The notes beneath the pieces were generated by a model, which had not been told where the DNA came from, did not search any database, and saw only the letters and a program-made list of their open reading frames with translations. A stretch of 63,905 nt of DNA, counting the filler, from Lophium mytilinum (lineage: Eukaryota), in NCBI GenBank assembly GCA_010093605.1. It is 18 parts of 5 records of this genome, joined end to end, with 100 filler letters (N's around TTAATTAATTAA, not from the genome) between each part and the next. Parts side by side here need not be neighbours in the genome. Positions count along the whole stretch, not along the records: positions 33,958 to 47,908 come from MU004182.1; 17 more parts are not named here. One strand, written 5' to 3'. Shown here piece by piece: positions 7,946-58,504 of this stretch. Every line of letters starts with the position of its first letter. The stretch's first letter is position 1. The translations under genes and the position numbers were made by a program.

Positions 7946-9874
7946 AAGAAATAGTAGAGTAAGAGAAATAAAGAAAGTAGAAACTACTAGTAGAGAAGAA
8001 GGTATAGAAGCTATAAATAGAAAAGAAAGTATAACTAATCTAATAGATACTTAATATTATCTAGCTATATACTAAGTTAATATATAATTCTATTTAGCCT
8101 AGTATTATCTATAATAAGGTTATATAGTAGCTTAAGGCGCTTAGGCCTAAAACTACTTAGTATTTAACTGCCTAAAAATAACTCTATGCGCTTATAGTTA
8201 CTATAGAGAGTAGCTAGACTATTTCTAGTAATACCTAAGTTATAGGGAATATAGTAATTAGTAGTATTAATATTATAGCTATACTTAAATTTAATATATA
8301 TAGTTTTAGTAAGACTAGACTCTCTATAAATATAAATAAGATAATTATAGCTAATATAAAGAAGGTAGATACTATTAATATTACTACTATAATAGCTCTA
8401 ATATTAAGCTCTATAAAGAATATCTTAGTAGTAGTATTTAAGAAAGTACTATAGTTTTTTAGTTTACCTCTAATATATAGGAATTTTTCTAGTAATATAA
8501 TCTTTAAGCTACTAGAAATAACTACTAATTTAAAAATGCGTGCAGCCCTATACTAGGTAGCCGGGATATATAGCATTATCTAAGGTCTTACTAGTAAAGT
8601 ATATAGGCTAATTCTTATAGACCCCCCTAGAATAGAAAAAACTCTATAAATATTAATAGCATTTACTACTTATACTAGAGAGGCTAGTACTAATACTTTG
8701 CATTCTAGTAGTATTAAAGGCTATATTATTTAGCTTACTAAGAAGAGTCTACTAAATTAGACCTATAAGAAGGTAAAATACTAGCTAGATATTAAATATA
8801 AAAATAAAAATTTTAAGATTTCTAGTAAAAGACTTTATATCTAGTATATATATAGAAGTATTATAGAGGGTAACTTTACCTCTAAAGACTAGAAGAACCT
8901 TAGGCCTATCTACTAAGAAATAAATAGTTAGATATAGTATAAGCTAAATCTAAGAGTAAAAACCTACCTTATTATTATAAGCGTAGAGACCTCTAATAAA
9001 AAATATAATAAGAATTTAAACTTACTAGAGACCTTTATAATATTCTATAACCTATTATATAGTAATAAAGTAACCCCTATATATATATATAGGGCTATTT
9101 TTTTTAATAAGTTCTATCTAGAATTTAATAATATATCTCTATATATTATAGCTTTTAGCTATATTAAGTCTATATAGTATTAGTATATATTCCGCCTAAC
9201 TATATATAAATAGGTAAATATTAACTATATACTTAATTAGGTTTATTAGGGCTAGAACTTAAAAGGGTTTAATAAGGCTACTAATCTATATAGCTACCCT
9301 AGAGGCTTATTTTATAGTAGAACTCTTTTTCTCTATAGCCCTAAAACTCTATTATATCTAATAGTTATACTATATAGAGGTTTATAGACGCTAACTTAGA
9401 TAATAGACCTAACTAACTTAAATACTAATATTAAAGATAATCTAGATAATACTCTTCTAGATAAGAAGTTAGAGAAAGAAAATATAGATAAAGAGAATAA
9501 GTTTAATATTCTTTATTAAGGCCCTACCCTCTAGTATATTAATTAAGAAGACCTTATAAAGGCTAGAGGTTACTACTATACCTTAAAAATAGAGAAAGAG
9601 TAGTAACTATAGAATAATTCTAAATTATCTAGGCGTCTCTAGAGAGTATTAAATATAATTATAGCTATAAGTATCTATAAAACGCTAATAAGCCTTAGCC
9701 TAAATAGCCTTTTCTTAGGGGATATACCGCTCTATATTATATAGTAGGTAATAGTTAGTATACCTAACTACTTTAAACTCTTTATTAAGAAGTACTATAT
9801 AGTTATTAGAGAGAGATATATAGACCTTAAAGAAGAGTATAAAGAATAGCTAAGGTATAGAGTAGTAATTAATA
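7946..9874 (+). pseudogene. SNF2-like helicase relic (copy 1, N-terminal lobe)
   Basis: Motif I region at 8290-8316 and de-RIPed DEFH at ~9106. Homologous to 45195-47125. Confidence 0.75.
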
Positions 9875-14750: not shown

Positions 14751-14799
14751 AAGTACTAGCTAATATAGTAATAGCTAAAGCCTATATATACTCTCTACG

Positions 14800-20039: not shown

Positions 20040-20043
20040 ATTA

Positions 20044-20830: not shown

Positions 20831-20874
20831 GTATATAGTTATATAGCCTTTCTATTTAATATATACTTTATATA

Positions 20875-20932
20875 TAGTATTACTATTTTAGTATTACTAT
20901 TTTAGTATTACTATTTTAGTATTACTATTTTT
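20875..20932. repeat. 14-bp tandem repeat x4
   Basis: Unit TAGTATTACTATTT is repeated downstream of the transposase. Confidence 0.85.
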
Positions 20933-22234: not shown

Positions 22235-25200
22235 TATTTATATTTATAGAGGGTCTAGTCTTACTAAGACTATATATATTAAATTTAAGCGTAGCTATAA
22301 TATTAATACTACTAATTACTATATCCCCCGCAACTTAAGTATTACTAGAAATAGTCTAGCCGCTCTTTATAGTAACTATAAGTATATAGAGTTATTTTTA
22401 GATAGTTAAATACTAAGTAGTTCTAGGTCTAAATGCCCTAAGCTGCTATATAACCTTATTATAGATAATACTAGGCTAAATAGAATTATATATTAACTTA
22501 GTATATAGCTAGATAATATTAAGTATCTATTAGAGTAGTTATGCTTTCTTCTCTATTTATAGCTTTTATACCTTCTTCTCTACTAGTAGTTTCTACTTTC
22601 TTTATTCCTCTTACTCTACTATTTCTTCTAGCTATTTCTACCTCTTTACTTTCTCTTTAGTTATAGTCTTAGCTAGCTCTCTCTTCTTTTATTCTATCTA
22701 CTTTTTAGCCTTCTCCGCTATTACTATATCTACTAGCTCTCTCTTTTTTATCTCTTTCTTCTTTATCTCTTTCTTCTTTCTTTCTTTCTCTACTTTTACT
22801 ATTTCTGCTAGCGCTTTCTCTACTAGCGCTTTCTCCGCCAGCTCTTTCTCTATTAACTCTTTCTCCTTCTTCTCTTTCTCTTTCTTTTTTTTCTCTACTT
22901 TTGCTGTTTCTACTAGCTCTTTTTTCTTTTTTTCTTTCTCTTCTTTTACTATATCTACTAGCTATTTCTACTTCTTCCCTTTATTCTACTCTATAGTAGA
23001 ATTAACTCTATCTATATTAGCTATATATATATCTAGACTTATAGTTAAGTTAATAATTATTTTATCTAGAGTATTAGCGGCGGTAGGTTTAGGTAGACCC
23101 TTAGCTGCGGTAGCCTTAGGCTTACTACAGCGGGGGCATTTTTTAGCCGGGCGGATACTAGGGGGCGGGGACTTAAGAAAGTATAGACCTAGCTATGCAT
23201 TAGTTAGTAGTAATATTTAATAATTAATAATAATTAATATATATTTAGTCTTAAGTTTAAATATTACCTTTTTAATATTAAGGCCCTTTACTATAAAACT
23301 AAGTACTATCTCTTTAGGTATACTCTTTATTTCCTTTAATAGCGTAGTTAGATAGAAGTTATTTTCTATTAACTTCTAGATTCTATTAACTATAATAATA
23401 TGCTCTAGAGGGTTAAAGTCTATAAAAGTTCTATTAATAGCTTCTAGAAACTTTATAAAGCTATAGTCTTCTAGCTCTAGGCCTTTACTACTAGACCTTA
23501 TAAGATAGAGAGTAAAAAGGCGTCTAGTACTTTTCTACTGCGGTAGCTAGTATATTATAGCAAGAACTGTATATAATAGCCGGGGCTTAAATAGGGTATT
23601 TTAGGTAGTAATATCTAGGGATTTTATTAGAGAGCTAAGGCCTACTAATATAACTAACTTTATAGATAAGGCTAACTTAAACTACTTCTACTTCTTATTA
23701 CTTTTAATAATATTACCCTATATCTTATATTTCTTATAGACTTTATACTAGATTAATATCTAATATACTTACTTCTACTTAGCTAATATAGAAGACTTCT
23801 TAAATATATAACTTTATATATCTATAAAAAGCGTATATATTTTAAACTAAGTATTTAAGTAGATATTATTCTTACTATAGTTATTTTAGCCTAGTTATAA
23901 GAAATATTTTACCTATAGGTACGCTTTAGAGTTCTCTATTAGTATAAATAAGTTAGCTTCTATTTAGCGCTATACCTTAAAAGCTAGACCTAAGCTAGCT
24001 ATAATATTTATTTAACTTAAGTAGCCTTTAGAGTTCTTAGTAAAATTAAATGCCGCCTTACTCTATATAGATATATTATATAGTAGGTCTACTAGAAGTA
24101 TTATAGCCTTTTCCTAAGTAGGTCTAGAGTATTAGCGGCTACTATAGAAAGGCCAGCGGCTATAGTAGTTATCTAGCTTATCTAGCTCTAAATTACTATT
24201 ATAGTCTACTTAACTAGAGTCTATACTTAATAACTATTTATCCAGGTTAAACTTCTTATTATTTTAATTATTAGGGAGGCGTTATTAGTAACTAGTACGT
24301 TAATTTAATCCTTTAGCTATATTAGGTAAATAAGATAAGAAGTTAGGGTATAAGAAAGGTAGATAGAAGAGAGTAGGGTTAGTAGATAAAATAGCGTTAT
24401 GCAGTAATACGGGCGAGGGCAGGTAGAAGGCTAATAATATTAGATAAATAGCAATAGTAAGTAATAAGTAAGGTAGTTACTTACCTATAAAGTTATAATA
24501 GTAGATGCTACTTATAGTATAATTAACCTTAGAATTACGCGCGTTAAAAAATAAGGTAACTATAGTAGAAGATATATAAATCTATACGCGCTAGTAATAG
24601 AAATAGCTACTCTTAGTTATACTTTTAAATAGGTATAATATCTATTAAAGAAATACTTATAGAGCGGTACTAGAAATATAGTAAATATAGATAAGCCTAA
24701 GGCGTAGAGAAGAAAGTTAGCGTATAAGGGAGGAAGGAGAAGAAGAAGAGAGAGAGGAAAGAGAGAGATAGAGGAGGAGGAGAATAAGAAAGAAAAGATA
24801 GGTAAGAATAGTAGATAAGAATTAGAATTAAAAGGCTAGATAGAAGGTAAAGTTTAAAGTAGCGCATAATTAAGTATATAATTAGTAAACAGGCTATATT
24901 ATAATATAATAGAAGTAAAGAGTTATATAGCTTAAAAAACTCTACTACCTAATAATTAGTAATAATTAGCCTCTACCTTAATATTTATCTATACCTATTA
25001 GCTTTTAGTAACACTTAATAGATTAGTAATAACTTCTACCTAATATTACCTTCTACTTGCCTAGGTTAGTTAATATAGGGAGGAAGGCTAATTTCTATAT
25101 ATAGGTGCTTCCCCCTATTATTTAAGTTAGTATTATAAGCTCTACTAGATTAGCAGCTAATAGGTTAAGATCCTTAGAATAGAAAGAGAAGTTAGCTATA

Positions 25201-28200
25201 GCTATTTAAGAAGGTACTATACTACTTATTATTACCTAAGCTGCTGCGCGCCTCTCTACCTCTAATAGTAGCTTATTATCTACTAAAGTTGCGCCCTATA
25301 AGCTAGTAGATAGTAGTACTAATTTATATATCTTCTTACTATCTACTCTTTTTATAAGTATTACTAATTTAGCTTATACTATAGAATAGCTTACTTACCT
25401 ACTTTCTCTCTTACTAAATAAGTACCCTTACTTTCTAGCCCCTCTACTAGCGCGCACACTGCCTCTATATAGAGAACGCCTACTTTAACCTATCTAGAAA
25501 GACTAGCGTTACTTATCTATATATTTATTATACTTCTTATCTACTTACTTACCCCTACTAGCGCTAGGCTAACTATAGTCTACATTTAACTAGCCTATAT
25601 ATCTCTCTCTCTTATAGCCCTCTACTACTCTAGGTAGCGCTTTCTAAAGGCTCTACTTAGTAGTTCCCGCTCTCTCTCTATCTCTTATAGCTCGCGCTCT
25701 AATAACTAGGTTAGCGTACTTCTTTTTATAGATTTAGCCTTTCTAGAAGTAGTAGAATTACGCAGTTATATCTTATAGGCTACGCCTCTAGAATATATAT
25801 AGATTAGTAATACTTAAGTTTATCTATTATAGTATACTATAAGGCTAACCCTTAAGTATAGCTTAAAATTAGTAGAGGCAGGTTAGAAGTAGATAAGAAA
25901 GATAATAGAGTAATACTTAGATATTTAGGGGACTAATTAACTACTATATAGTACCTATATTCTACTAGGTAATTTAGCTATTAAATGCGCGTTTAGATAA
26001 AAGCCTCTTAATGCAACTAATATCTTACTAGATATAATAGTGCTTAGTTCTAATCTAATTATTAGCCTAATATTATACTAGCCTTAACTCTAACTCTCTA
26101 GAAGGTAGCTACTACTATAGTAACTTATACCTTCTATAATAATAGCTAATATACTACTAGCGCATATTAGACTAAAGCCCTAAACTCTTTTAATAACCNN
26201 NNNNNNNNNNNNNNNNNNNNNNNNNNNNNNNNNNNNNNNNNNTTAATTAATTAANNNNNNNNNNNNNNNNNNNNNNNNNNNNNNNNNNNNNNNNNNNNAC
26301 TATATAGCTAAAGCGTTAGCTAAAATATAGTAAGTAGTAGAGGGCTACTATAATTAGAAATAATTAATAATAATTAAAAATAATTAGATATTCTACGGGC
26401 GGCCCGGGTAGACTATAGTATAAGAGTTACTACTAGCACTAGTTATAGGCGCCGGCGACTTAAATAGAAGGTAGTATCCCCGCTACTAATTTAGAGGTAT
26501 TAGTAATCTAGAAGTCTTTTATACCTATATACTTAATTTAAAATACTAAGTTATTATTATATTTACTATAGGTTATATATATAAATACTAGATAGTAATA
26601 TATATAGTCTATAAGCTAATATCTTTCTAGGGCTAAATATCTACTAGCCTAATTTCTAGCACTATTAATAAGGGCTTAATAATCCTTTAGCTTTCCTATT
26701 AACCCGGTATAGAATAGGGCCTAGAGTTTTACCGGGGTATTATTATAAAAGTAGCTAAAGAACTTAATCTACTTCTAATAGCGCGGTATAGACTATTAAA
26801 GAAAGGCTTAAGTACTCTTATAATTTATAAGAAGATAGTTCTCTACCCTTACTACTTACTAGTTCTTATAAGTTATCTACTCTCTATCTACCTTATTCTT
26901 ATTAAGCGCAGTTATTACTAATATATATGCCGCTAATTCTACCGCGTATAAGAGGCTTAAGCGGCCAAATTAGTAATATTATAAAACTCCCTACCTAACT
27001 AGCGCCTTCTAGCTATTATCTAATTTTGCGCTAGCTAAGAGAGATGTAGAGTTTAACCTAGGCTACTTAATGCGCATCTAATATTACTATCTTATAGCTA
27101 TTCTATAACTAGTACTTACTCTAGCAGCCGTCTTCTTAATAACGCCGGCACTCTTAGTAGATACCTATTAACTCTATTTTACTAGACTAGTAATATATTA
27201 CCGCCTAGCACTTATCTTATAGAAGAGAGTAATGCGCTTAAACTTAGTATCTTCTTCTATATTGCCTAGATAGCACTTGCCTAGAATTAAGAGTTCTTTA
27301 CTATAGCTAGTAACTGCGGTAGAAAGTTAGATACTAGAAATTAGTAAGAGGTAATACTTACTTTTAATACACGCTGTGCTATTAAAACTAGAGAAACTAG
27401 ATATAACTACTAGTATGCGCTTAAAACTACGCCTACTATAAAGGTTTATACTAGCTATAAAGAATATAGAAATAATAGAAATAATTATATATAGGCTTTA
27501 GAGTTATAGTTTAAAAAAGTAAGCTATAGTCTTTAACGCGTAGATATATTAAGGTTCTAGGCTAATAGAATAGCCCGCCCTTTATTAGAACGCGTTGCGT
27601 ACTATTAAAGAATAATAAGTGCTATATACTAGCCTATAATCTAATATAATCTATAATAATTACTTATAATCTATAAGTTTCTATATAGGGCTAACTAAAT
27701 TTAACTAGAAATAGAGTATATATCTTCTACTAAATATAGATACTACTATAAGTTATTTTAAATACTTAGCGCCCTAAATAAATATATACCGTGCTATAAA
27801 AAGCTTCTTAAAATACTATAGCGGGTCCCGCTTACTAATACTAGAACTATTAAATCTGTAATCTAGTCTTATATACTTTATATTATTTAGATAATAGACG
27901 GGATCTTATTTAGAACGCCTAGATTACTACTAGTAAGTCTACCCCTACTAGCTAACCTCTATAATAAGATAGAGTATAAGATAAATAAAATAGAGCTATA
28001 TATCTCTAGTAAACTAAAAGAGTACTAGAGTCCGCTTTCTATAAATAGAGGCCCTATAAGCTTAATATATAATAACCCGCTAGAGGCTACTAAATTCTAT
28101 ATTTTATACTAATAAGGCTAACTAATAATATTATCTATATTATTACTATAAGAGAAAGTATATTTCTCTACTAAATTAGGCATGCCCGCAGGGGCGTCTA

Positions 28201-34239: not shown

Positions 34240-37200
34240 AATTAAGAATATCTTTTCTTACGGCCTTATTTCTACCTATACTATTACTTACTAGTGCTAT
34301 AGCCCCTCTTTACTATGCTACTTCTTAGTGTTTACCGGCTTAGTTGCGGGAAAGAGGTATTAGTAAGTGCTTTTACCCTTATGCACTTTACTAAAAACTC
34401 CGCTGCATCTTTAACTTTTAAGGTAGCTTTAATCTCTTTAGCGCAACTGCTAAGCTAGTACTATCTTATTACTTCTTATGCCTCTATCTTCTAGTCTTCT
34501 ATATAGAGTATATTATATTAATCCTAGTTAATATAGTTATTAATAAAAAAATAGGTAGAATCTAGGCTAGAGGTAGCTAGTATAATATATGCACTTTAGA
34601 GAACTTATAGTAATAGATAGAATTAATATACTTCTAGCTTTTATTAGCGGCAGCTATTATTAGAAGCCTAAGGAGCTACCTCTACTAGACTATAGATGTA
34701 ATATAGCTTTCTATTATTAATTAGTGCTAGAAGGTAAATAAAAACTCTAGAGTATACCGCCTATAGAGTGTTTTTACCCTTTAGAATAGGGTCTATAATA
34801 GTTACTATAAATTATAGCTATTCTACTAACCTTCTATTAGTAATACTAATACGCATTTTTCTATTTTTAGTATAGTTTAAGCTATACTCTTGCACCTATA
34901 GATAGTTGCGTTACTATTCTTAGTTTTACTACTTAGGGTTATACTATAGATTTTCTTTTATAAGGCTTTCTAGGTTCTTACTAGTACCTAATTACTTCTA
35001 ATATAAAATACTAGCGTGGAACTTAAGCTAGAGGTAGCTAATCTAGAATAGATTAGGGTCTAATATATCTAGGCTGCTAGGCTTAGTATATTAGTCTTAG
35101 ATCTTGCGCCTCTCTTCTTAAATAAATATAGCGGCGGCGGCTATAAAGTCTAGCTTCCAGCTTATATTAGCTATATACTTAATACTTACTTTTAAATAGT
35201 GCACTATTTAGCCTTTATAGAAATTATTATATCTAGGCTATTTAAAGTTTAAAATATTAATACTTTTTAATACTATTATCTATCGCATTAGCATATCTCT
35301 TATTACTGCTAGTTAAGAATAGTAATATTAGTAGTTTAGTATATTATTTATGGCCTAGTTATTTATAAGTCTCTAGTTTAATTAGTAGATCTAGGGTAGA
35401 AAGTCCTTATAGTTTATTAACTAATACTATAATTTAACTAGGTATTAGTATTTTACTTTACTATTTAAGCCGGTATTATAGCTATTAATGGCGCTAAATT
35501 TCTATATAAAATTAACGTAGTGCTGCATAATATAGAATTTTAGGTAGTAGAAGGTATAGTTTCTATTCTTATCCCTAGGTTTAAATATTCTAAATTCTAA
35601 CTTATATATATTAATTTAAGCTATTACTAGCTCTATATACTCTAGCGTAGCCTTATTATGCGTCTTATACTATACTAGAATAGTAAAATTAAGTATTATA
35701 TAGATAAACTAGAGCGTATTTAGCGCCTTTACTTCTAGTAGTAGTACTACTACTACTATAAGCTAGCGGGCTATAGACTTTTATTTAGAGCTAGTATACT
35801 ATAAGAGTTTACTAAAATTCTTCTTATTAAATGTAGATAGACCCGGAAAAGGCGGCACGTTCTTAAATTGCTTATCTAGCTAGGTTAAGCTACTCTTATT
35901 TTCTATTAGAATACGGGCATCTTTTCTTCTAATTACTAGGGTGCAGACCTCTACTACTAGTAGCTAGACCTATTTAATAAGGTTATAAATAACGCCTATA
36001 AATAGTTAGTATAGAATATCTATTATTATTATCTAGTAGATATTAGTATAGGGGTATTTCTAGGTAAAGTTATTTATAGAATATATATATAACTCTATAT
36101 TAAGCTCTATAGCCTCTATATTATATAGCGCTTTATTTAATAGAAGTTTTAAATGCTCTTTATTATTGCGTTGCTATTTAATCTAAATAATAGTTAAGTA
36201 GTAAAACCTTATAGCGTATTTAGTCTCTAGGTCTTTATATTAATGCGATAGTACCTGGCATATAGTGTAGTATTTTCTAAATTTAATATCTATAAGTAGG
36301 CTCTATTCTTTATAATTAGCTATAATCCCGCATAATACTAGATAGCACCTTTAATTCTTACTATTTCTATATTCTAGTATAATTCCATTAGTAGTATATT
36401 CTATAATAGCTTATTTTATATTAGAAAACCGCTTAGTATTAGTAAGAATTTTACTAACGCCTAAGAATATAGCCTAAAGAGCTATAGTATAGCTANNNNN
36501 NNNNNAGAATATAGCCTAAAGAGCTATAGTATAGCTAATACTTTAGGTAGTCTTCTTTATCTACTATACTTAGTATAAAGCCTAGTAGTAGGGTGCTAGG
36601 TAATATATTTAAGCACCGCGTAGTTCTATCTAGGTTGCTAATAGTTAGATAGACTAGCTATACGCTCTTATTACTGTAATATTAGGTAAGCTATATCTTA
36701 TCTATAGAGAGTAAGATAGATATTACTATAGCCTCTACTAGAAGCTTTAACTAAGTCTACTACTACTAGTTTAATATATATAACTTAGTATATACCTACT
36801 AGCCTTCTATATTATAGACTTAAACTAGTATAAATATAAGGTAATTATAGAAAGGGCAGTATTTAATTAGAAATAATATAGCTGCTATTATATTAAAGTA
36901 GTATACTAGATACTACTCTCTACTTAAGCTTTATTTTTTACTTAGGAAATATAGTATCTCTACTATATAGTTAGTATTGCTAATACTATATCTAATTTTC
37001 TCTAGTTTACTATTCTATAAATCGCCTAATATAAATGTAAGGGAGTTAGAGAATATACTCTTAAGGTAGATATTATTAAATAGTAGATTAATATTATTCT
37101 TAGTATAGCTAATCTACTAAAGCTATAATATAAAAGCATAGTTAAACGCTAATTAGAATAGATAGAAGGGGGATTAGTCTCTATAATAGAGTAACTAGTT

Positions 37201-37700
37201 AGTAAGCTCTAATACCGCCTTTATAGGTAGAGGGGACGGCGGTTTCTAATAATACTTATATCTACTATCTAGTATTAGCCTATCTAATAGACGCCTCTAC
37301 GGGCATGCCTAATTTAGTAGAGGGATATACTTCCTCTTATAGTAATAACGTAGATAATATTATTAGTTAGCCTTATTAGTATAGAATATAGAATTTAGCA
37401 GCCTCTAGCGGGTTATTATATATTAAGCTTATAGGGCCTCTATTTATAGAAGGTAGACTCTAGTACTCTTCTAGTTTACTAGAGATATATAGCTCTATTT
37501 TATTTATCTTATACTTTATCTTATTATAGGGATTAGCTAGTAGAGGTAGACTTACTAGTAGTAATCTAGGCGTTTTAAATAATATCCCGTCTATTATCTA
37601 AATAACGCGGAGCATATAAAACTAGATTATAGATCTAGTAGTTCTAGTATTAGTAAGTAGAACCCGCTATAGCGTTTTAAGGAGCTTTTTATAGCACGGT
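34240..37700 (-). pseudogene. Plavaka-type transposase relic
   Basis: De-RIPed minus-strand motifs in order: PFYPF..FDYA (~37150), RVYTELHTSNWWW.TQ.KLP.GATVVPILLS.DKTQLT...GDKSAWPVYLTIGNL (36800-36630), RRCYPVLCGIMADYEEQ.LL.GIK....C..C.VP (36350-36250), LDKQFKNVPPFPGL.TF (35880-35830, readable without de-RIP), QYTG.EQK, LDFTILAQYKTHD..TL, PKFH..QHYVDFIRKFGAIDGYDT (~35540-35470), INNYIDWDQYNTLY (~34545-34505). Confidence 0.9.
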
Positions 37701-39199
37701 ATATATTTATTTAGAGCGCTAAGTATTTAGAATAACTTATAGTAGTATTTATATTTAGTAGAAGGTATATACTCTATTTCTAGTTAAATTTAGTTAGCCC
37801 TATATAGAAACTTATAAATTATAAGTAATTATTATAGATTATATTAGATTATAGGCTAGTATATAGTACTTATTATTCTTTAATAGCACGCGATATATTC
37901 TAATAGAGGGCGGGCTATTTTATTAGCCTAGAACCTTAATATATCTACGCGTTAAAGACTATAGCTTACTTTCTTAAACTGTAACCCTAAAGCCTATATA
38001 TAATTATTTCTATTATTTCTATATTCTTTATAGCTAGTATAAACCTTTATAGTAGGCGTAGTTTTAAGCGCGTACTAGTAGTTATATCTAGTTTCTCTAG
38101 TTTTAATAGCATAGCGTATATTAAAAGTAAGTATTACCTCTTACTAATTTCTAGTATCTAACTTCCTGCCGCAGTTACTAGCTATAGTAAAGAACTTTTA
38201 ACTCTAGGCAAGTACTATCTAGGTAATATAGAAGAAGATACTAAGTTTAAGCGCGTTACTTTCTTCTATAAGGCGAGCGCTGGGCGGTAATATATTACTA
38301 GTCTAGTAGAATAGAGTTAACAGGCATCTACTAAGGGTGCCGGCGTTATTAAGAAGATGGCCGCTAGGGTAAGTGCTAGTTATAGGACAGCTATAAGATA
38401 GTAATATTAGATGCGCATTAAGTAGCCTAGGTTAAACTCCGCGTCTCTCTTAGCTAGCGCAAAATTAGATAATAGCTAGAAGGCGCTAGTTAGGTAGGGA
38501 GTTTTATAATATTACTAATTTAGCTACTTAAGCCTCTTATACGCGGTAGAATTAGTAGTATATATATTAGTAATAACTACACTTAATAAGAATAAGGTAG
38601 ATAGAGAGTAGATAACTTATAAGAACTAGTAAGTAGTAAGGGTAGAGGACTATCTTCTTACAGATTATAAAAGTACTTAAGCCTTTCTTTAATAGTCTAT
38701 ACCGCGCTATTAGAAGTAGATTAAGTCCTTTAGCTACTTTTATAATAATACTCTAGTAAAACTCTAGGCCCTATTCTATACTGGGTTAACAGGGAAGCTA
38801 AAGAATTATTAAGCCCTTATTAATAGTACTAGAAATTAGGCTAGTAGATATTTAGCCCTAGAAAGATATTAGCTTATAGGCTATATATATTACTATTTAG
38901 TATTTATATATATAACCTATAGTAAATATAATAATAACTTAGTATTTTAAATTAAGTATATAGGTATAGAAGACTTCTAGATTACTAATACCTCTAAATT
39001 AGTAGCGGGGATACTGCCTTCTATCTAAGTTACCGGCGCCTATAACTAGTACTAGTAGTAACTCTTATACTATAGTCTACCCGGGCCGCCTATAGGATAT
39101 CTAATTATTTTTAATTATTATTAATTATTTCTAATTATAGTAGCTCTCTACTACTTACTATATTTTAGCTAACGCTTTAGCTATATAGTTCTATATTCT

Positions 39200-40602
39200 C
39201 TAGCTAAGCTTATCTTTATATAGATTCTATAGTCCGTAATTATCTTACGCGTTTAAGTTATTACTACTATTACTATCTCTATTAAGGAGCCTAGCGTAGT
39301 CCTTAAGGTCTAGAATAGCCTTATAGATATAATCTAAGATAGTTAGCTACTAGTATATTAATTTATTATCGCCTAAGTATAGTATATAGGTACTATCTTA
39401 GTTAGTATTATTATCTTTGCTAGTATTGCACTTAGAGTAGAAGTTATTACTTCCGTTATAGCTAAAGGCGGAGTAGTAATAGCTAACTACTAGATAGCTA
39501 CTTACTTTATAATAGTTAATAGTGCTATTAGTAATTAGTTCTTAAATAAATATAGTAAAACCTCTAGCTATATAGTAGTTAGTATAGAAGGTTAGACTAT
39601 TAATATAGTAGACTTTAGTAGCGTTCTATTTATCCCCCTCCGCACTATTACTAGCCTTAGCCTAGCCAGCCTTAAACTTATCTAGTACCTTAGCGTAGTA
39701 TTTAAGAATATTCTTAATATTATATTTACTATGCCCTTCTAGTCTACTAGTTATCTTAAAGTTATAAACTTACTTAACCATAACCTATACTAACTTAAAT
39801 AGGGATAGAAACTAGTTAGAGCGGCCTTAGTAGGAAATATTAATAGTATATAGTCTCTCTAGCGGTATATAATTCTCTATTATTAGAACCTAGTACTAAT
39901 CTAGATATATATAAAGGGGCTTAGTTGCGTCTATAAAGCCCTCTACTATATTATTTATTATATTTACTATATTTAGCGTTATAGGTAATACTATAAGTAT
40001 TTTAGTAGCTATATTATATAATACCTTATAAAACTTCTTATAAGTCTAGGCGTTAACCTATTTCTATAATAAGTTAACTAGTATAGTACGCCGGGTAATA
40101 TTTTTATATACTATCTAAGTAGTATACTAGCGCTTATTATCTAGACTTTACTCCTCTATATTAGAAGTAGTAACCTTAAAATAGAGAATATAATCTAGGT
40201 CTATATACTTACTTAGAGTATTAATAGAAGAGTAGGTATAGTAGTTACGCCGGGGCACTAGTAGGTTCTCTATAATTCTAATAAATAGTAGGTTAGTTTA
40301 GGTAAAAAGTTTAGCCTTTTATAACTCTAGGAGCGGGGGTATAGTTTATAGTAGGTTTAGGGGCTACTTAAGGCTATAAAATTCTCTAGCTTATACTTCT
40401 ATAGATACTAACTTCTCTAGAGTATCTAGTATAGACATAACTAGGTGCATCTAGGTAAAACTATCTATTATTATAGCCTTAAACTTCTTATTAGTATAGA
40501 TAGTATTAAGTAGAGAGTCTACTTAGCTATAGAATATAATCTAGTATAGCTTATTAGTATATAGTAATCTAAATACTAGAACTATAAATATAAGCTATAT
40601 TT
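39200..40602 (-). pseudogene. Unidentified ORF relic within the large element
   Basis: Long plausible minus-strand reading frame, but no recognisable motif. Frame openness is weak evidence in RIPed DNA. Confidence 0.3.
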
Positions 40603-41452
40603 NNNNNNNNNNNNNNNNNNNNNNNNNNNNNNNNNNNNNNNNNNNNNNNNNNNNNNNNNNNNNNNNNNNNNNNNNNNNNNNNNNNNNNNNNNNNNNNNNN
40701 NNNNNNNNNNNNNNNNNNNNNNNNNNNNNNNNNNNNNNNNNNNNNNNNNNNNNNNNNNNNNNNNNNNNNNNNNNNNNNNNNNNNNNNNNNNNNNNNNNNN
40801 NNNNNNNNNNNNNNNNNNNNNNNNNNNNNNNNNNNNNNNNNNNNNNNNNNNNNNNNNNNNNNNNNNNNNNNNNNNNNNNNNNNNNNNNNNNNNNNNNNNN
40901 NNNNNNNNNNNNNNNNNNNNNNNNNNNNNNNNNNNNNNNNNNNNNNNNNNNNNNNNNNNNNNNNNNNNNNNNNNNNNNNNNNNNNNNNNNNNNNNNNNNN
41001 NNNNNNNNNNNNNNNNNNNNNNNNNNNNNNNNNNNNNNNNNNNNNNNNNNNNNNNNNNNNNNNNNNNNNNNNNNNNNNNNNNNNNNNNNNNNNNNNNNNN
41101 NNNNNNNNNNNNNNNNNNNNNNNNNNNNNNNNNNNNNNNNNNNNNNNNNNNNNNNNNNNNNNNNNNNNNNNNNNNNNNNNNNNNNNNNNNNNNNNNNNNN
41201 NNNNNNNNNNNNNNNNNNNNNNNNNNNNNNNNNNNNNNNNNNNNNNNNNNNNNNNNNNNNNNNNNNNNNNNNNNNNNNNNNNNNNNNNNNNNNNNNNNNN
41301 NNNNNNNNNNNNNNNNNNNNNNNNNNNNNNNNNNNNNNNNNNNNNNNNNNNNNNNNNNNNNNNNNNNNNNNNNNNNNNNNNNNNNNNNNNNNNNNNNNNN
41401 NNNNNNNNNNNNNNNNNNNNNNNNNNNNNNNNNNNNNNNNNNNNNNNNNNNN

Positions 41453-43250: not shown

Positions 43251-43538
43251 AGCTACTTCTATTACTAGCGCGCGTGGATTTATATATCTTCTACTATAGT
43301 TACCTTATTTTTTAATACGCGTAATTCTAAGGTTAATTATACTATAAGTAGCGTCTACTATTATAACTTTATAGGTAAGTAACTATCTTACTTATTACTT
43401 ACTATTACTATTTATCTAATATTATTAGCCTTCTACCCGCTCTTACCCGCATTACTATATAATGCTATTCTATCTACTAACTCCGCCTTCTTCTATCTAC
43501 CTTTCTTATACCCTAACTTCTTATCTTATTTACCCAAT

Positions 43539-46500
43539 ATAGCTAAAGAATTAGGTTAACGCACTAGTCGCTAATAACGCCTCCCCGATAATTAAAATAA
43601 TAAGGAGTTTAACCTAGATAAATAGTTATTAAGTATAGACTCTAGTTAAGTAGACTATAATAGTAATTTAAAGCTAGATAAGCTAGATAACTACTATAGC
43701 CGCTAGCCTTCCTATAGTAGCTACTAACGCTTTAGACCTACTTAGGGAAAGGCTATAATACTTCTAGTAGACCTACTATATAATATATCTATATAGAGTA
43801 AGGTAGTATCTAATTTTACTAAGAACTTTAAAAGCTACTTAAGTTAAATAAATATTATAGCCGGCTTAGGTCTAGCTTCTAAGGTATAGCGCTAGATAGA
43901 AGCTAACTTATTTATACTAATAGAGAACTCTAAAGCGTATCTATAGGTAAAATATCTCTTATAACTAGGCTAAAATAACTATAGTAAGAATAATACCTAC
44001 TTAAATACTTAGTCTAAAATATATACGCTTTTTATAGATATATAAAGTTATATATTTAAGAAGTCTTCTATATTAGCTAAGTAGAAGTAAGTATATTAAA
44101 TATTAATCTAGTATAAAGTCTATAAGAAATATAAAATATAGGGTAGTATTATTAAAAGTAATAAGAAGTAGAAGTAGTCTAAGTTAGCCTTATCCATAAA
44201 GTTAGTTATATTAGTAGGCCTTAGCTCTCTAATAAAATCTCTAGATGTTACTACCTAAAATGCCCTATTTAAGCCCTAGCTATTACATGCGGTCCTTACT
44301 ATAATATACTAGCTACTGCAGTAGAAAAGTACTAGACGCCTTTTTACTCTTTATTTTATAAGGTCTAGTAGTAAAGGCCTAGAGCTAGAAGACTATAGCT
44401 TTATAAAGTTTCTAGAAGCTATTAATAGAACTTTTATAGACTTTAACCCTCTAGAGCACGTTATTATAGTTAATAGAACCTAGAAGTTAATAGAGAATAA
44501 CTTCTATCTAACTACGCTATTAAAGAAAATAAAGAGTATACCTAAAGAAATAGTACTTAGTTTTATAGTAAAGGGCCTTAATATTAGAAAGGTAATATCT
44601 AAACTTAAGACTAGATATATATTAATTATTATTAATTATTAAATATTACTACTAACTAATATATAGCTAGGTCTGCACTTTCTTAAGTCCCTAGCCCCTA
44701 GTATCCGCCCGGCTAAGAAACGCCCCCGCTATAGTAAGCCTAAGGCTACCGCGGCTAAGGGTCTATCTAAACCTACCGCCGCTAATACTCTAGATAAAAT
44801 AATTATTAACTTAACTATAAGTCTAGATATATATATAGCTAATATAGATAGAGTTAATTCTACCGCAAAGTAAGATAAAGAGGAGAAGCGGAAATAGCTA
44901 GTAGATATAGCGAAAGAAGAGAAAGAAAAAAAGAAGAAAGAGCTAGTAGAAATAGCGAAAGTAGAGAGAGAAAAGAAAGAGAAAGAGAAGAAGAAGAAAG
45001 AGTTAGTGGAGAAAGAGCTGGCGGAGAAAGCGCTAGTAGAGAAAGCGCTAGTAGAAATAGTNNNNNNNNNNNNNNNNNNNNNNNNNNNNNNNNNNNNNNN
45101 NNNNNNNGGAGAAGGCTAAAAAGTAGATAGAATAGAAGGAGAGAGAGCTAGCTAAGACTATAACTAAAGAGAAAGTAAAGAGGTAGAAATAGCTAGAAGA
45201 GATAGTAGAGTAAGAGGAATAAAGAAAGTAGAAACTACTAGTAGAGAAAAAGATATAAAAGCTATAAATAGAGAAGAAAGTATAACTAGTTTAATAGATA
45301 CTTAATATTATCTAGCTATATACTAAGTTAATATATAATTCTATTTAGTTTAGTATTATCTATAATAAGGTTATATAGCAGCTTAGGGCGCTTAGGCCTA
45401 GAACTACTTAGTATTTAACTACCTAAAAATAACTTTATGCGCTTATAGTTACTATAGAGAGTAGCTAGACTATCCCTAGTAATACCTAAGTTGCGGGGGA
45501 TATAGTAATTAGTAGTATTAATATTACAGCTATGCTTAAATTTAATATATATAGTCTTAGTAAAACTAGACCCTTTATAGATATAAATAAGATAATTATA
45601 GCTAATATAGAGAAGGTAGATACTATTAATATTACTACTATAATAGCCCTAATATTAAGCTCTATAAAAAATATCTTAGTAGTAGCGTTTAAGAAGATGC
45701 TATAGTTTTTTAGTTTACCTCTAATATATAGAAATTTTTCTAGTAATATAATCTTTAAGCTACTAGAAATAACTACTAATCTAAAAATGCGTGTAGCTTT
45801 ATACTAGGTAGCCGGGATATATAGTATTATCTAAGGTCTTACTAGTAGGGCGCGTAGGCTAATTCTTATAGACCCCCCTAGAATAGAAAAAACTCTATAA
45901 ATATTAATAGCATTTACTACTTATACTAGAGAGGCTAGTACTAATACTCCGCGTTCTAGTAGTATTAAAGGCTACGTTATTTAGCTTACTAAGAAGAGTC
46001 TACTAAATTAGACCTATAAGGAGGTAAAATACTAGCTAGATATTAAATATAAGAATAAGAATTTTAAGGTCCCCGGTAGAAGACTTTATATCTAGTATAT
46101 ATATAAAAGTATTATAGAGGGTAACCTTACTTCTAAAGACTAGAAGAACCTTAAGCCTATCTACTAAGAAATAAATAGTTAGGTGTAGTATAAGCTAAAT
46201 CTAAGAGTAAAAACCTATCTTATTATTATAAGCGCGGAGACCTTTAATAAAAAATATAATAAGAATTTAAACTTGCTAGAGACCTTTATAATATTCTATA
46301 ACCTATTATATAGTAATAAAGTAACCCCTATATATATATATAGGGCTATTTTTTTTAATAAGTTCTACCTAGAATTTAATAATATATCTCTATATATTAT
46401 AGCTTTTAGCTATATTAAGTCTATATAGTGTTAGTATATATTCCGCCTAACTACGCGTAAATAGGTAAATATTAACTATGCGCTTAATTAGGTTTATTAG

Positions 46501-47908
46501 GGCTAGAACTTAAAAGGGTTTAATAAGGCTGCTAATTTATATAGCTACCCCGGAGGCTTATTCTATAGCAGGACTCCTTTTCTCCGCGGCCCTAAAACTC
46601 TATTATATCTAATAGTTATACTATATAGAGGTTTATAGACGCTAACTTAAATAGTAGACCTAACTAACTTAAATACTAATATTAAAGATAACCTAGATAA
46701 TACTCTTCTAGATAAAAAGTTAGAGGAAGAGGATATAGATAAAGGAAATAAGTTTAATATTCTTTATTAAGGCTCTACCCTCTAGCGTATTAATTAAGGA
46801 GACCTTATAGGGGCTAGAGGTTACTACCTTACTTTAAAAATAGAGAAAGAGCAGCAACTATAGAATAATTCTAAATTATCTAGGCGTCTCTAGAGAGTAT
46901 TAGATATAATTATAGCTATAAGTATCTATAAAATACTAATAAGCCTTAGCCTAGATAGCCTTTTCTTAGGGGATATACCGCTCTATATTATATAGCAGGT
47001 AATAGTTAGTATACCTAACTACTTTAAACTTTTTATTAAGAAGTACTATATAGTTATTAGAGAGAGATATATAGACCTTAAAGAAGAGTATAAAGAATAG
47101 CTAAGGTATAGAGCAGTAATTAATAAGCCGCCGCCTTTCTTTAGCCTAGGCGCCTTTCTAATAGACTTAGGTAAGAAGAGGCTGCCCCGGATTTTTATAT
47201 TAATTTCTAGGCTAGCTAAGTTAAAGATGTAATAGGAAGAGCTTAGCTTAATAAGTAATCTAATCTTTACTCTAGAAGATATTAAAAATGCGGGCTAGAT
47301 AGATTACATAGACTTAGAGAGTACCCTTACTAAATAGTATACTAACCTACTAGCTAATTTAGAAAAGCTAAAAAAGATTAGGAGTATAGTTTAATATATT
47401 TAAGCTAAGAAGAAGAAGATACTAATTATTAGCAAGGAGCCTATAGTTAATTTAGTTATCTATATTATAAGTTACTACCTATCTCTATCTATAATTAGCG
47501 ATTATTATCTAATAAACTAATATAATTAATACTAGATAATTATAAAGACTATACTAACTAAAAAGCTTGCATAGTTATATTTATTACTAATAGTTAAGTA
47601 ATAGAAGTAATTTAATACTAGCTTTAAGCGTAATTAAGATAATCTAGCGGCCGTTAATATTCTAGTTATAAACCGGAAGATTAGAGAAGTAGAAGGCTCT
47701 AACTTTACTTTTTAATGCACGTGCGTAATAGTTATAGAGCTATAGACTATATCTAGCCTTAAGGTATAGATTATATCTAGAGTATAGTAGAAGAACTAGA
47801 GGTCTAATAGAATATATAGCATTATTCTCGCCTATATAGGGGGTAATAACCTAGCGGATGCACTAGCTTAGTCTTATATAGTTAATAATAATAAGTTTAT
47901 ATATAAGG
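43539..47908 (+). pseudogene. SNF2-like DExH helicase gene relic with K/E-rich coiled-coil
   Basis: De-RIPed motif I FDxxGLGKT at 45541-45567 and motif II IFFDEFH at 46348-46368 lie in the same frame. HelicC region KMLI..E P, LH....R..F, ILV....G.EG.NF...CV.VMEP......E.Q...RV.R..Q at 47415-47800. K/E tract at 44870-45260. Probable 69-nt intron at 47467-47535. Confidence 0.8.
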
Positions 47909-48008
47909 NNNNNNNNNNNNNNNNNNNNNNNNNNNNNNNNNNNNNNNNNNNNTTAATTAATTAANNNNNNNNNNNNNNNNNNNNNNNNNNNNNNNNNNNN
48001 NNNNNNNN

Positions 48009-53517: not shown

Positions 53518-53621
53518 TAGGCTAATTTATAAGGGGAAACTATTTACTACTAGATAGAATAGCTATATAAACTCTAATAGAAGCTATACTAGTATAATAG
53601 AGTTTAATAATAATAATAATA
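53518..53621 (+). mobile_element. Terminus of a (TAA)n-tailed element
   Basis: 53550-53620 is the reverse complement of 61893-61963 and ends in (TAA)5. Confidence 0.6.
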
Positions 53622-56352: not shown

Positions 56353-58504
56353 ATTAGCTATAGTATTAGTAGTATATTAAAATATAGGTAGCTAGAAAGG
56401 GCTTAGCATTAGTAAGTATATACTTTTCTACCTATTTTCTTTTAGCTAGTATATATATATAGTACTAAATTATACTACTATAGGCCTATAGTGTACTCTA
56501 ATTTATAGGCTGCTCTATTTAAATCTCTTTATTAGGAATATAAGTAAGATTAGATATATACTATCTACTAATATTCTATAGTCTAGATTAAAAGGGTAGA
56601 ATAGAGAGTTCTTATAATCTTTCTATATCTTATAATATGCAAGAATATTACTAATAATATATGCAGGCCTATAGAGTATTAGCGCCGCTATATAAATATT
56701 TACCTATATAATACTATAGTTTATATTACTAATACTTAGGCCTTAAATTATATTTAAGGCTTATACTACTAATACCTAAGCCTTGCGGTAAGTATATAGT
56801 TAAGTAGATTATATTAATATTAAAAATAGGTAGTCTATAGTAGACCTACTATAGATATAGTATACTTATTAATGCAGCAATTATAGGTATATTATAGAAG
56901 TAGAAGTTAAAATAGTTTATTTTATAATATCTACTATAAAACTGTATACACTATATAATTAGTATATTTAGTAGTTACCTTAGTACTAATAGTTTTTTAG
57001 TTTTCCTTCTTTTTTAGTATACTTTATATAACCTTATATATAAACTTATTATTATTAACTATACGGGACTAAGCTAGTATATCCGCCGGGTTATTACTCT
57101 CTATATAGGTAAGAATAATACTATATATTTTATTAGACCTCTAGTTCTTCTACTATACTCTAGATATAATTTATATCTTAAGGCTAGATATAGTCTATAG
57201 CTCTATAACTATTATGCATATATATTAAAAAGTAAAGTTAGAGCCTTCTACTTCTCTAGTCTTCTAGTTTATAACTAGAATATTAATAGCCGCTAGATTA
57301 TCTTAATTACGCTTAAAGCCGGTATTAAATTACTTCTATTACTTAACTATTAGTAATAAATATAACTATATAAGCTTTTTAGTTAGTATAGTTTTTATAA
57401 TTATCTAGTATTAATTATATTAGTTTATTAGATAATAATTACTAATTATAGATAGAGATAGATAGTAACTTATAATATAGATAACTAAATTAACTATAGG
57501 CTCCTTGCTAATAATTAGTATCTTCTTCTTCTTAGCTTAAATATATTAAACTATGCTTCTAATCTTCTTTAGCTTCCCTAAATTAGCTAGTAGGTTAGTA
57601 TACTATTTAGTAAGGGTACTCTCTAAGTCTATATAATCTATCTAGCCCGCATTTTTAATATCTTCTAGAGTAAAGGTTAGGTTACTTATTAAGCTAAGCT
57701 CTTCCTATTATATCTTTAACTTAGCTAGCCTAGGAATTAATATAAAAATCCAGGGTAGCCTCCCCTTACCTAAGCCTATTAGAAAGGCGCCTAGGCTAAA
57801 GAAAGGCAGCGGCTTATTAATTACTACTCTATATCTTAGCTATTCTTTATACTCTTCTTTAAGATTTATATATCTCTCTCTAATAACTATATAGTACTTC
57901 TTAATAAAGGGTTTAAAGCAGTTAGGTATATTAACTATTACCTACTATATAATATAGAGTAGTATATCTTCTAAGAAAAAACTATTTAGGCTAAGGCTTA
58001 TTAGCGTTCTATAGATGCTTATAACTATAATTATATCTAATACTCTCTAGAGACGCCTAGATAATTTAGAATTATTCTATAGTTACTACTCTTTCTCTAT
58101 TTTTAAGATATAGTAGTAACCTCTAGCTTCTATAAGGTCTTCTTAATTAATACGCTAGAGGGTAGAGCCTTAATAAAGAATATTAAACTTATCCCCTTTA
58201 TCTATATTCTCTTTCTCTAACTCCTTATCTAGAAGAGTATTATCTAGATTATCTTTAATATTAGCGTTTAAATTAGTTAGATCTACTATTTAAGTTAGCG
58301 TCTATAAACCTCTATATAGTATAACTATTAGATATAATAGAGTTTTAGAGCTATAGAGAAAAGAAGTCCCGCTATAAAATAAGCCTCTAGGGTAGCTATA
58401 TAAATTAGCAGCCTTATTAAACCCTTTTAAGTTCTAGCCCTAATAAACCTAATTAAGTGTATAGTTAATATTTACCTATTTATATATAGTTAGGTAGAAT
58501 ATAT
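56353..58504 (-). mobile_element. Large element copy 4, SNF2 C-terminal part and downstream sequence
   Basis: 57032-58504 is the reverse complement of ~46436-47908. 56353-57031 extends past the end of copy 3. Confidence 0.85.

What the first reader, a model, noticed from the sequence alone, without database searches (positions are those of the whole stretch)
43539..47908. Element-borne SNF2-like gene (~1400 codons) with long unknown N-terminus, K/E coiled-coil and an intron
Seen: motifs I and II are in frame, with HelicC-like motifs downstream. Removing ATAAGT...TAG (47467-47535, a RIPed GTAAGT...AG intron) gives a sensible helicase reading. The motifs look divergent from core chromatin remodelers (DEFH, degenerate motif VI). 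Inference: a transposon-encoded chromatin or DNA translocase that could assist transposition or counter host silencing.
Basis: partly seen in the sequence, partly recalled or inferred. Interest (0 to 1): 0.8.

Follow-up and report, generated by a model that had tools for sequence, protein, structure and literature searches.

The report
Dead repeat copy of helicase-like gene
This stretch is one mutation-riddled, non-functional copy of a high-copy fungal repeat that once carried a large ATP-driven motor gene, probably of the SNF2 chromatin-remodeler type, and similar dead repeats are already known.

Summary
The region is saturated by repeat-induced point mutation (RIP): 29% GC, TpA/ApT 1.86, no ORF over 128 aa, and 68 stops in the 933-codon helicase frame. 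Standard searches find nothing. Pfam, phmmer against 1.84 billion proteins, PDB sequences and a word-based search all gave 0 hits.

I scored the codons with a model that allows for RIP (each T may have been C, each A may have been G). A Walker-A site at 45859-45900 is then the best match among about 120,000 window positions. An SNF2 motif-VI block is also ranked first, in the same frame 1.9 kb downstream. Collinear chains of SNF2 motifs beat codon shuffles (0 of 2000, 0 of 300, 3 of 500; whole window 6 of 300). DEAD-box, UvrD and Upf1 profiles give no signal. The Walker-A site alone fits AAA+ and SF1B equally well.

The SNF2-like reading is therefore moderately supported. 'DEFH', motif III and the intron are plausible but unproven.

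The gene lies in a repeat unit of at least 11 kb. Four partial copies sit in the window and hundreds of read-contig pieces in the source organism, and the differences are almost all RIP transitions. No transposase, termini or Plavaka link could be shown. The closest precedent is the RIP-degraded X3X3R8 helicase repeat of Parastagonospora nodorum. Interest is low.

The parts
43539..44591 (+). Putative 5' part of the decayed gene (frame of 43302). The proposed start ATA would be a mutated ATG. The function of this part is unknown.
   Evidence: This frame has fewer stops than the other two from about 43600 on. Counts are still 4-7 per 50 codons up to 44200 and fall to 1-2 after that. Pfam finds nothing. 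The start position is not established.
44592..44666 (+). Possible intron 1: 75 nt, GTAATA ... CTAAC ... TAG.
   Evidence: Read directly from the sequence. It is in frame and holds 2 stops. No RNA evidence.
44870..45290 (+). K/E-rich low-complexity stretch with a 45-nt (15-codon) imperfect tandem unit. It is interrupted by the 46-N assembly gap at 45062-45107.
   Evidence: Tandem Repeats Finder gives period 45, 2.2 copies and 88% matches at 44891-44987. The sister copy reverse-complement 22235-26198 fills the gap with 81 nt in the same frame. G-to-A changes make K from E, R or G codons, so part of the K-richness may be a RIP product (inference).
45787..45900 (+). Q-motif-like L-Y-stop-V-A-G followed by Walker A: L-I-L-I-D-P-P-R-I-E-K-T-L-stop. 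This can be read back as (A/I)(D/G)PPGxGKTxQ.
   Evidence: The SNF2 motif-I block scores 15.9 bits at 45859. That is rank 1 of 120,524 positions; rank 2 is its own copy at 8608, and the next unrelated place scores 7.4. The same site scores 17.7 bits with SNF2, 16.4 with AAA+ and 15.8 with SF1B P-loop contexts. The Q-motif tile is weak at 3.1 bits.
46333..46368 (+).
   Evidence: A generic 'hhhhDE' tile scores 9.1 bits here. The site lies 156 codons after the Walker-A lysine. SNF2 profiles prefer other sites, 46183 or 46501, so the assignment is unsettled.
47467..47535 (+). Possible intron 2: 69 nt, ATAAGT ... CTAAT ... TAG.
   Evidence: Read directly from the sequence. It holds 3 stops in 23 in-frame codons and is conserved in the sister copy. 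Removing it brings the motif IV-to-V spacing from 85 to 62 codons, against 58 in the bacterial profile. Motif IV itself is not statistically supported.
47650..47805 (+). C-lobe motifs V and VI: ...I-L-V-I-N-R-K-I-R-E-V-E-G-S-N-F-T... and E-L-stop-T-I-S-S-L-K-V-stop-I-I-S-R-V-stop-stop-K-N-stop.
   Evidence: The motif-VI block is rank 1 of 118,730 positions at 47722 with -7.6 bits. Rank 2 is its copy at 57218, and the next unrelated place scores -10.3. 5 of 2000 region shuffles reach it. The motif-V tile at 47659 has region P = 0.006.
7946..9874 (+). Sister copy of 45197-47125, more mutated.
   Evidence: 93.7% identity with no indels. 120 of 121 differences are C/T or G/A transitions.
22235..26198 (-). 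Sister copy of 41661-45589. It spans the N gap.
   Evidence: 91.2% identity. 248 of 251 substitutions are transitions. It fills the gap in frame.
56353..58504 (-). Sister copy of 46436-47908 plus about 680 nt beyond. It shows the 3' end of the gene.
   Evidence: 92.7% identity. The frame runs on for a few dozen more codons past the equivalent of 47908, with stops at its usual density, before stops become frequent.
37100..40602 (-). Second long decayed reading frame in the same repeat unit, pointing away from the helicase-like gene.
   Evidence: One minus frame has 5-11 stops per 100 codons over about 3.3 kb, against 10-24 in most other frames. The segment 37078-39189 is repeated with the unit. 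Pfam finds nothing.

Best explanation
The span is one RIP-inactivated copy of a long (at least 11 kb), high-copy repeat of an ascomycete genome. Before mutation the repeat carried a gene of about 1,250-1,450 codons. Its parts were an N-terminal region of unknown kind, a K/E-rich tandem-repeat linker, and a two-lobed P-loop motor. The motor is most likely a SNF2-type (superfamily 2) DNA translocase with a long insertion between the lobes. Here it is a pseudogene and does nothing.

Shown: RIP saturation, the repeat nature, frame continuity, a Walker-A site, and collinear SNF2-like motif signal above chance.

Inferred: membership of SNF2, the DExH box, both introns, and any past function.
For: RIP and repeat nature:
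- RIP indices and composition.
- Copies differ almost only by transitions.
- 926 contig pieces of run X1 lay on the stretch, and the changes are RIP-type transitions in both directions: A>G 50, T>C 57, C>T 37, G>A 40, and 1 transversion.

Gene frame:
- One frame has the lowest stop density and is continuous across the gap.

Motif signal:
- Walker A is rank 1 of 120,524 positions, and the SNF2 motif-VI block is rank 1 of 118,730, in the same frame and in the right order.
- The 8-block SNF2 chain scores -62.6, against -83.9 for the best unrelated place.
- 0 of 2000 region shuffles reach it, and 0 of 1000 do when block I is ignored.
- 6 of 300 whole-window shuffles reach it.
- With a broader profile (29 bacterial plus 73 viral SNF2), the chain scores 45.3 with z = 3.2. 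3 of 500 shuffles and 2 of 212 other window stretches reach it. A repeat gave 0 of 300.
- DEAD-box, UvrD and Upf1-like profiles give z = -0.9, -0.7 and 0.2.
Against: - Pfam finds 0 families at E <= 1.
- phmmer finds 0 hits in 1.84 billion representatives, 0 in PDB sequences at E <= 10, and 0 among 7,999 word candidates.
- hhalign and hmmsearch with RIP-aware sampled alignments do not beat controls.
- In pairwise RIP-aware alignment, 10 of 60 shuffles reach the top score.
- The Walker-A site fits AAA+ and SF1B as well as SNF2. The AAA+ tile chain has the highest z, 4.3, through Walker A plus Walker B.
- Motifs Q, Ia, II, III and IV are not individually above chance.
- One strong tile match, at 46267, is out of order.
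- Using the least-mutated bases did not raise the score more than using the most-mutated bases.
- All reference profiles are prokaryotic or viral. No fungal SNF2 could be fetched.
Confidence: 0.6

Rival explanations
1. The gene is (or was) an accessory gene of a DNA transposon, the first reader's Plavaka-type element. Its motor would have helped transposition or countered host chromatin silencing.
For: High copy number and dispersal as a unit of at least 11 kb. A second long decayed ORF sits in the same unit and could be a transposase. Fungal DNA transposons are known to carry captured epigenetic enzymes: TET/JBP in Plavaka and others (PMC12730594, passages read).
Against: No transposase domain was found in the flanks or in the second ORF, though RIP would hide one. 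The ends of the unit lie in assembly gaps, so no terminal repeats or target duplications can be seen. PMC12730594 has 0 occurrences of SNF2 and one unrelated occurrence of 'helicase'. All copies seen here are dead.
Confidence: 0.25
2. The repeat is a duplicated endogenous gene cluster, not a transposon. It was amplified segmentally and then struck by RIP, like the X3X3R8 family of Parastagonospora nodorum with its Rad5/SNF2-like helicase genes.
For: There is a direct precedent: a 26-kb RIP-degraded repeat holding three helicase genes, a Rad6-like gene and unknown ORFs, with a few copies still gene-like (PMC3017866, passages read). Here too the unit is long and holds at least two large ORFs. 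A GC-rich, apparently unmutated version of 46672-46695 exists in the same organism's reads: 11 of 24 letters differ, all in the RIP direction (compared by eye).
Against: Homology to X3X3R8 could not be tested. No annotated protein matched. The hundreds of contig pieces suggest a copy number more typical of a mobile element. No RING-like Cys/His pattern, which would appear as Y-x2-Y after RIP, was seen between the lobes in the listing (inspection only).
Confidence: 0.3
3. It is the relic of a different P-loop NTPase (AAA+, STAND/NACHT-like, SF1 helicase such as a Helitron Pif1-type), and the SNF2-like motifs are chance.
For: The Walker-A site read as GPPGxGKT fits AAA+ (16.4 bits) and SF1B (15.8 bits) almost as well as SNF2 (17.7 bits). 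The AAA+ tile chain has z = 4.3. Most SNF2 motifs are individually not significant.
Against: The Walker A-to-B distance is 156 codons, against 70 alignment columns in the AAA+ set. UvrD and Upf1-like profiles give no signal. The SNF2 motif-VI block is the window's best hit in the right frame and order. The chain stays significant without block I. PIF1 and NACHT profiles were not tested.
Confidence: 0.2
4. There never was a gene here. The motifs are chance products of reading AT-rich DNA through a permissive RIP model.
For: All standard searches are blank. RIP-permitted ancestor sets are broad. An out-of-order tile match as strong as the ordered ones exists.
Against: One frame keeps the lowest stop density for about 1.8 kb. 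Walker A is unique in the window. Chain tests beat shuffles and 210 of 212 other window stretches.
Confidence: 0.05

Closest known systems
X3X3R8 repeat family of Parastagonospora (Stagonospora) nodorum SN15 (Hane and Oliver 2010, PMC3017866; passages read; supplements not opened)
   Same: A long multi-gene repeat in an ascomycete. Most copies are destroyed by RIP, it carries SNF2/Rad5-like helicase genes plus unknown ORFs, and it is unrecognisable to ordinary searches until RIP is reversed.
   Different: Sequence homology was not testable here. No ubiquitin-conjugating gene was identified. No RING-like pattern was seen between the lobes. X3X3R8 was read as an endogenous gene cluster with some gene-like copies, whereas all four copies in this window are dead.
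Canonical SNF2-family ATPases (Pfam PF00176 SNF2-rel_dom + PF00271 Helicase_C), represented here by 29 bacterial and 73 viral sequences
   Same: Same order of Q/I, Ia-like, V and VI blocks. Walker A is followed two residues later by a codon that can only have been Q, R or W. Motif VI can be read as E-P-W-x-x-P-x-x-E-x-Q-A-I-x-R-x-x-R-x-G-Q in exact register.
   Different: The HMMs are not matched. Motif I reads DPPG rather than DEMG. Motifs II and III are not securely placed. The span from Walker A to motif VI is about 600 codons, against about 390 in the bacterial set.
Fungal DNA transposons that carry captured epigenetic enzymes (TET/JBP in Plavaka, Kyakuja, Zisupton and others; PMC12730594, passages read)
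   Same: The concept is the same: a mobile element that brings its own chromatin or DNA-modifying enzyme.
   Different: No transposase or termini were shown here. That paper reports no SNF2 cargo. Its TET/JBP-carrying families come from rusts, mushrooms and the Pezizomycetes (Abstract passage), none from a RIP-saturated genome region like this one.

Membership tests
SNF2 (Swi2/Snf2) ATPases | Significant match to the SNF2-rel_dom (PF00176) and Helicase_C (PF00271) models | tested here: not met
   0 families at E <= 1 for all three + frames read through with X. This tests the RIP-mutated sequence only. A de-RIPed sequence could not be handed to the tool.
SNF2 (Swi2/Snf2) ATPases | Walker A in the context hLADxxGLGKTxQ | tested here: inconclusive
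   Best site in the window at 15.9 bits, rank 1 of 120,524. AAA+ (16.4 bits) and SF1B (15.8 bits) contexts fit about as well as SNF2 (17.7 bits).
SNF2 (Swi2/Snf2) ATPases | DExH Walker B followed by motif III (S/T)GTP | tested here: inconclusive
   There are three competing Walker-B sites: 46183, 46357 and 46522. Taking the least-mutated base from each of two copies gives S-G-T-P at 46567-46578. The motif-III block is not above chance: 638 of 1000 shuffles reach it.
SNF2 (Swi2/Snf2) ATPases | C-lobe motifs V and VI (AGGxGxNL ... DxxWNPxxxxQAxxRxxRxGQ) | tested here: inconclusive
   The VI block is rank 1 of 118,730 but has a negative log-odds score of -7.6. 5 of 2000 shuffles reach it. The V tile has P = 0.006. 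The two 12-column VI tiles taken alone are not significant.
SNF2 (Swi2/Snf2) ATPases | All motif blocks collinear in one frame | tested here: met
   Chain tests: 0 of 2000 and 0 of 1000 region shuffles, 6 of 300 whole-window shuffles, 3 of 500 shuffles and 2 of 212 other stretches, 0 of 300.
Plavaka / CACTA-like DNA transposons | Plavaka or EnSpm-type DDE transposase in the same element | tested here: inconclusive
   Pfam finds nothing in six frames of 41453-43540 or in three minus frames of 36900-40602. RIP also hid the helicase from Pfam, so a blank result says little.
Plavaka / CACTA-like DNA transposons | Terminal inverted repeats with 2-3 bp target duplications (PMC12730594) | not testable with these tools
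   Every copy is cut by contig ends or N-linkers before the homology ends.
X3X3R8-type RIP-degraded helicase repeats | Sequence homology to the P. nodorum repeat or its SNOG genes | not testable with these tools
   No fungal DNA collection was available, and proteins cannot be fetched by accession. No annotated protein matched the mutated query.
AAA+ ATPases | Walker B about 55-70 residues after Walker A | tested here: not met
   The hhhhDE candidate lies 156 codons after the Walker-A lysine, against 70 columns in the E. coli AAA+ alignment.

The most novel reading that the evidence does not exclude
The repeat is a so far undescribed kind of large fungal mobile element that carries its own SNF2-type remodeler next to a second large gene. 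At least one little-mutated, possibly active, copy survives elsewhere in the same organism, as hinted by the GC-rich read fragment. That would be a transposon bringing its own chromatin motor.
Probability: 0.12. Interest if true: 0.6.

Novelty: new member of a known kind. Interest (0 to 1): 0.2.

Why it matters
As it stands it matters little. It is a dead copy in RIP-degraded repeat DNA of a kind already described.

Two things are of some use. First, it shows that such relics are invisible to Pfam and to billion-scale protein searches, and can only be read with a mutation-aware model. Second, the read data hint that a far less mutated copy exists in the same organism. If that copy is intact and sits in an element with transposon ends, it would show whether fungi harbour mobile elements that carry their own SNF2 motor.

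Tried and rejected
Blank standard searches:
- Pfam on read-through translations.
- phmmer against 1.84 billion representatives.
- PDB sequences.
- Word-based search with an alignment of the three copies.

Tools that could not be used:
- A whole-window Pfam scan failed because too much would have been printed.
- No whole genome is held for this window.

RIP-aware methods without signal above controls:
- RIP-aware sampled alignments with hmmbuild/hmmsearch.
- The same alignments with hhalign.
- Pairwise RIP-aware Smith-Waterman: 10 of 60 shuffles reach the top score.

Search for an unmutated relative:
- One 30-letter degenerate pattern run against JGI metagenome contigs gave one chance hit, a 70.7% GC contig with no similarity.

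Sequencing runs:
- No RNA holder was listed, and the one run guessed to be RNA laid nothing. This is no evidence on expression or on the intron.

Earlier notes of this scan: nothing found.

Ideas dropped:
- A RING finger between the lobes (Rad5/16 type). I looked for a Y-x2-Y pattern in the listing and did not see one.
- The Helitron Pif1 idea. UvrD and Upf1 profiles gave no signal and the motor span is too long. No PIF1 profile was tested.
- The expectation that the least-mutated merge of copies would score better than the most-mutated merge was not borne out.
Full report
WHAT IS THERE

The window is uniformly AT-rich, with GC between 0.16 and 0.32. It is a scaffold of short contigs joined by N44-TTAATTAATTAA-N44 linkers.

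The finding lies in two contigs, 41453-45061 and 45108-47908, separated by 46 N. Its end at 47908 is therefore a contig end.

The stretch is saturated by repeat-induced point mutation (RIP). TpA/ApT is 1.86 and (CpA+TpG)/(ApC+GpT) is 0.13. Only 21 CpA and 26 TpG remain in 4,324 bases.

There is no intact gene. The longest stop-to-stop ORF in the span is 128 aa, on the minus strand and running across the N gap, and the + strand has nothing over 83 aa. The proposed helicase frame has 68 stops in 933 codons.

IT IS A REPEAT

- Four partial copies lie in the window at 91-94% identity: + 1-9874, - 33857-22235, + 36506-47908 and - 63905-56353. The order of segments is the same in each.
- They differ almost only by transitions. 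Examples are 120 of 121, 107 of 108 and 248 of 251 substitutions, with no indels outside the N gap.
- The finding's copy is the least mutated of those that overlap it.
- In contigs of a DNA run of the source organism, 926 pieces lay on 45109-47908 at 85% or better. The changes are again RIP-type transitions in both directions: A>G 50, T>C 57, C>T 37, G>A 40, and 1 transversion.
- One loose contig end is a GC-rich version of 46672-46695. It differs at 11 of 24 letters, all in the RIP direction (compared by eye). At least one far less mutated copy therefore exists in that organism.
- Air-metagenome runs hold a 90-95% relative with transversions and indels.

GENE ANATOMY

- One + frame has the fewest stops from about 45.6 to 47.4 kb.
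- The sister copy on the minus strand fills the 46-N gap with 81 nt. This keeps the K/E-rich region and the motor in one frame.
- The K/E-rich part (44870-45290) contains a 45-nt tandem unit. Part of its lysine content may be a product of G-to-A mutation.
- Upstream of about 44200 the same frame is only slightly better than the others, so the 'long N-terminus' from 43539 is uncertain.
- The sister copy at 56353-58504 shows the frame going on for a few dozen more codons past 47908.
- Two intron candidates have fungal-type signals: 44592-44666 (75 nt) and 47467-47535 (69 nt). Both are in frame, so neither is needed to keep the frame open.
- The only indirect support for intron 2 is that removing it brings the IV-to-V spacing to 62 codons against 58 in the reference. 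Motif IV itself is not supported.

STANDARD SEARCHES FAIL

- Pfam: 0 families at E <= 1.
- phmmer against 1.84 billion representatives: 0 hits.
- PDB sequences at E <= 10: 0 hits.
- Word-based search with an alignment of three copies: none of 7,999 candidates passed.

MUTATION-AWARE TEST

For each codon I computed the probability of each ancestral residue. A T followed by A, or an A preceded by T, was given a 0.45 chance of having been C or G. Other T and A bases were given 0.18. These values were fixed before any scoring.

For reference I fetched:
- 29 canonical bacterial SNF2 genes (PF00176 at 250-270 bits);
- 73 viral SNF2 relatives, kept out of 80 loci;
- E. coli SF2, SF1 and AAA+ genes;
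- 3 Upf1-like genes.

Generic programs fed with sampled ancestral alignments showed nothing above frame and shuffle controls. This holds for hmmsearch and hhalign.

Position-specific block scans over all six frames of the window did show signal:
- The motif-I block is best at 45859: 15.9 bits, rank 1 of 120,524. Rank 2 is its own copy, and the next unrelated place scores 7.4.
- The motif-VI block is best at 47722: rank 1 of 118,730. Rank 2 is its own copy. The score is negative and the margin is small.

A collinear chain of eight blocks scores -62.6 there, against -83.9 for the best unrelated place:
- 0 of 2000 codon shuffles of the region reach it.
- 0 of 1000 reach it when block I is ignored.
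- 1 of 30 and 6 of 300 shuffles of the whole window reach it.

An unbiased 12-column tiling with the broader, weighted profile gives a chain of 45.3 (z = 3.2):
- 3 of 500 shuffles and 2 of 212 other window stretches reach it.
- A repeat run gave 0 of 300.

The same statistic with other families gives z = -0.9 for DEAD-box, -0.7 for UvrD/Rep, 0.2 for Upf1-like and 4.3 for AAA+.

RESULTS AGAINST THE SNF2 READING

- The AAA+ signal comes from Walker A plus a 'hydrophobic strand-DE' tile at 46333-46368. These features are shared by all such ATPases.
- The Walker-A site alone scores 17.7 bits (SNF2), 16.4 (AAA+) and 15.8 (SF1B).
- Motifs Q, Ia, II, III and IV are not individually above chance.
- SNF2 profiles place motif II at 46183 or 46501 rather than at DEFH.
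- A strong tile match at 46267 is out of order.
- Pairwise alignment is not significant overall: 10 of 60 shuffles reach the top score. The SNF2 family mean is the highest, at z = 4.2 with 1 of 60.
- The least-mutated merge of the copies scores no better than the most-mutated merge.

The AAA+ alternative has its own problem. Walker A and B are 156 codons apart, against 70 columns in the AAA+ set.

VERDICT ON IDENTITY

A relic of a P-loop motor gene is very likely. An SNF2-type motor is the best-supported family among those tested, at about 0.6. The span of about 600 codons between Walker A and motif VI implies a long insertion between the lobes. I did not see the Y-x2-Y pattern that a RIP-mutated RING finger would leave.

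ELEMENT CONTEXT

The unit also holds a second long low-stop frame on the opposite strand, at about 37100-40602. Pfam finds nothing there or in 41453-43540.

The ends of the unit fall in gaps, so transposon termini cannot be examined.

The 20 papers that mention Plavaka and the one I searched by passages, PMC12730594, give no link between Plavaka and SNF2. That paper has 0 occurrences of 'SNF2'.

The closest precedent is the X3X3R8 family of Parastagonospora nodorum. It is a 26-kb RIP-degraded repeat with Rad5/SNF2-like helicase genes and a Rad6-like gene, and its authors read it as a duplicated endogenous cluster (PMC3017866, passages; supplements not opened). My search for SNF2 + transposon + RIP + helicase listed 22 papers, and I followed up only this one.

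NOVELTY AND SCORE

This is a dead copy of a known kind of object. The transposon-remodeler idea is not excluded but has no direct support here. Interest 0.2.

Noticed in passing
window, 23 places, e.g. 47909-48008: Contigs are joined by N44-TTAATTAATTAA-N44, a linker with stops in all six frames. Other gaps are 850 N at 40603-41452 and 46 N at 45062-45107. Neighbourhood across these joins is known only at scaffold level, and gap sizes are not true: the 46 N stand for 81 nt.
   Followed up: partly
window 37100-40602 (-): A second long decayed reading frame (5-11 stops per 100 codons over about 3.3 kb) sits in the same repeat unit and points away from the helicase-like gene. No Pfam match.
   Followed up: partly
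window 14700-21900 (+): In the 12-kb contig that is unique in this window, one + frame is the lowest-stop frame in most 450-nt windows over about 7 kb. This may be the relic of another very large ORF, for example a retroelement polyprotein.
   Followed up: no
window 46672-46695 versus reads of run X2: A loose contig end in the source organism's reads is a GC-rich version of this stretch. 11 of 24 letters differ, all as RIP would change them. A far less mutated copy therefore exists somewhere in that genome.
   Followed up: partly
window 46267-46302 (+): L-N-L-L-E-T-F-I-I-F-Y is the window's best match to the SNF2 tile LNLT.ADTVIHY (motif V, second half). It lies in the N-lobe, out of order. 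This is either chance or a sign of how easily such tiles match RIP-mutated DNA.
   Followed up: no
window 53518-54685 and 53912-54464 versus 31392-31959: This is the most AT-rich contig (GC 0.19). It shares an older repeat at 68.7% identity with 31392-31959 and 1-482.
   Followed up: no
runs X3, X4 (air metagenomes): These runs hold a 90-95% relative of the repeat with transversions and small indels. A related strain or species with the same repeat family is therefore airborne.
   Followed up: no
window 1-2408 versus 31450-33857: This 2.4-kb segment has the same orientation at the 5' side of two copies that are themselves inverted relative to each other. It is either a separate element or a scaffold orientation error.
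   Followed up: no
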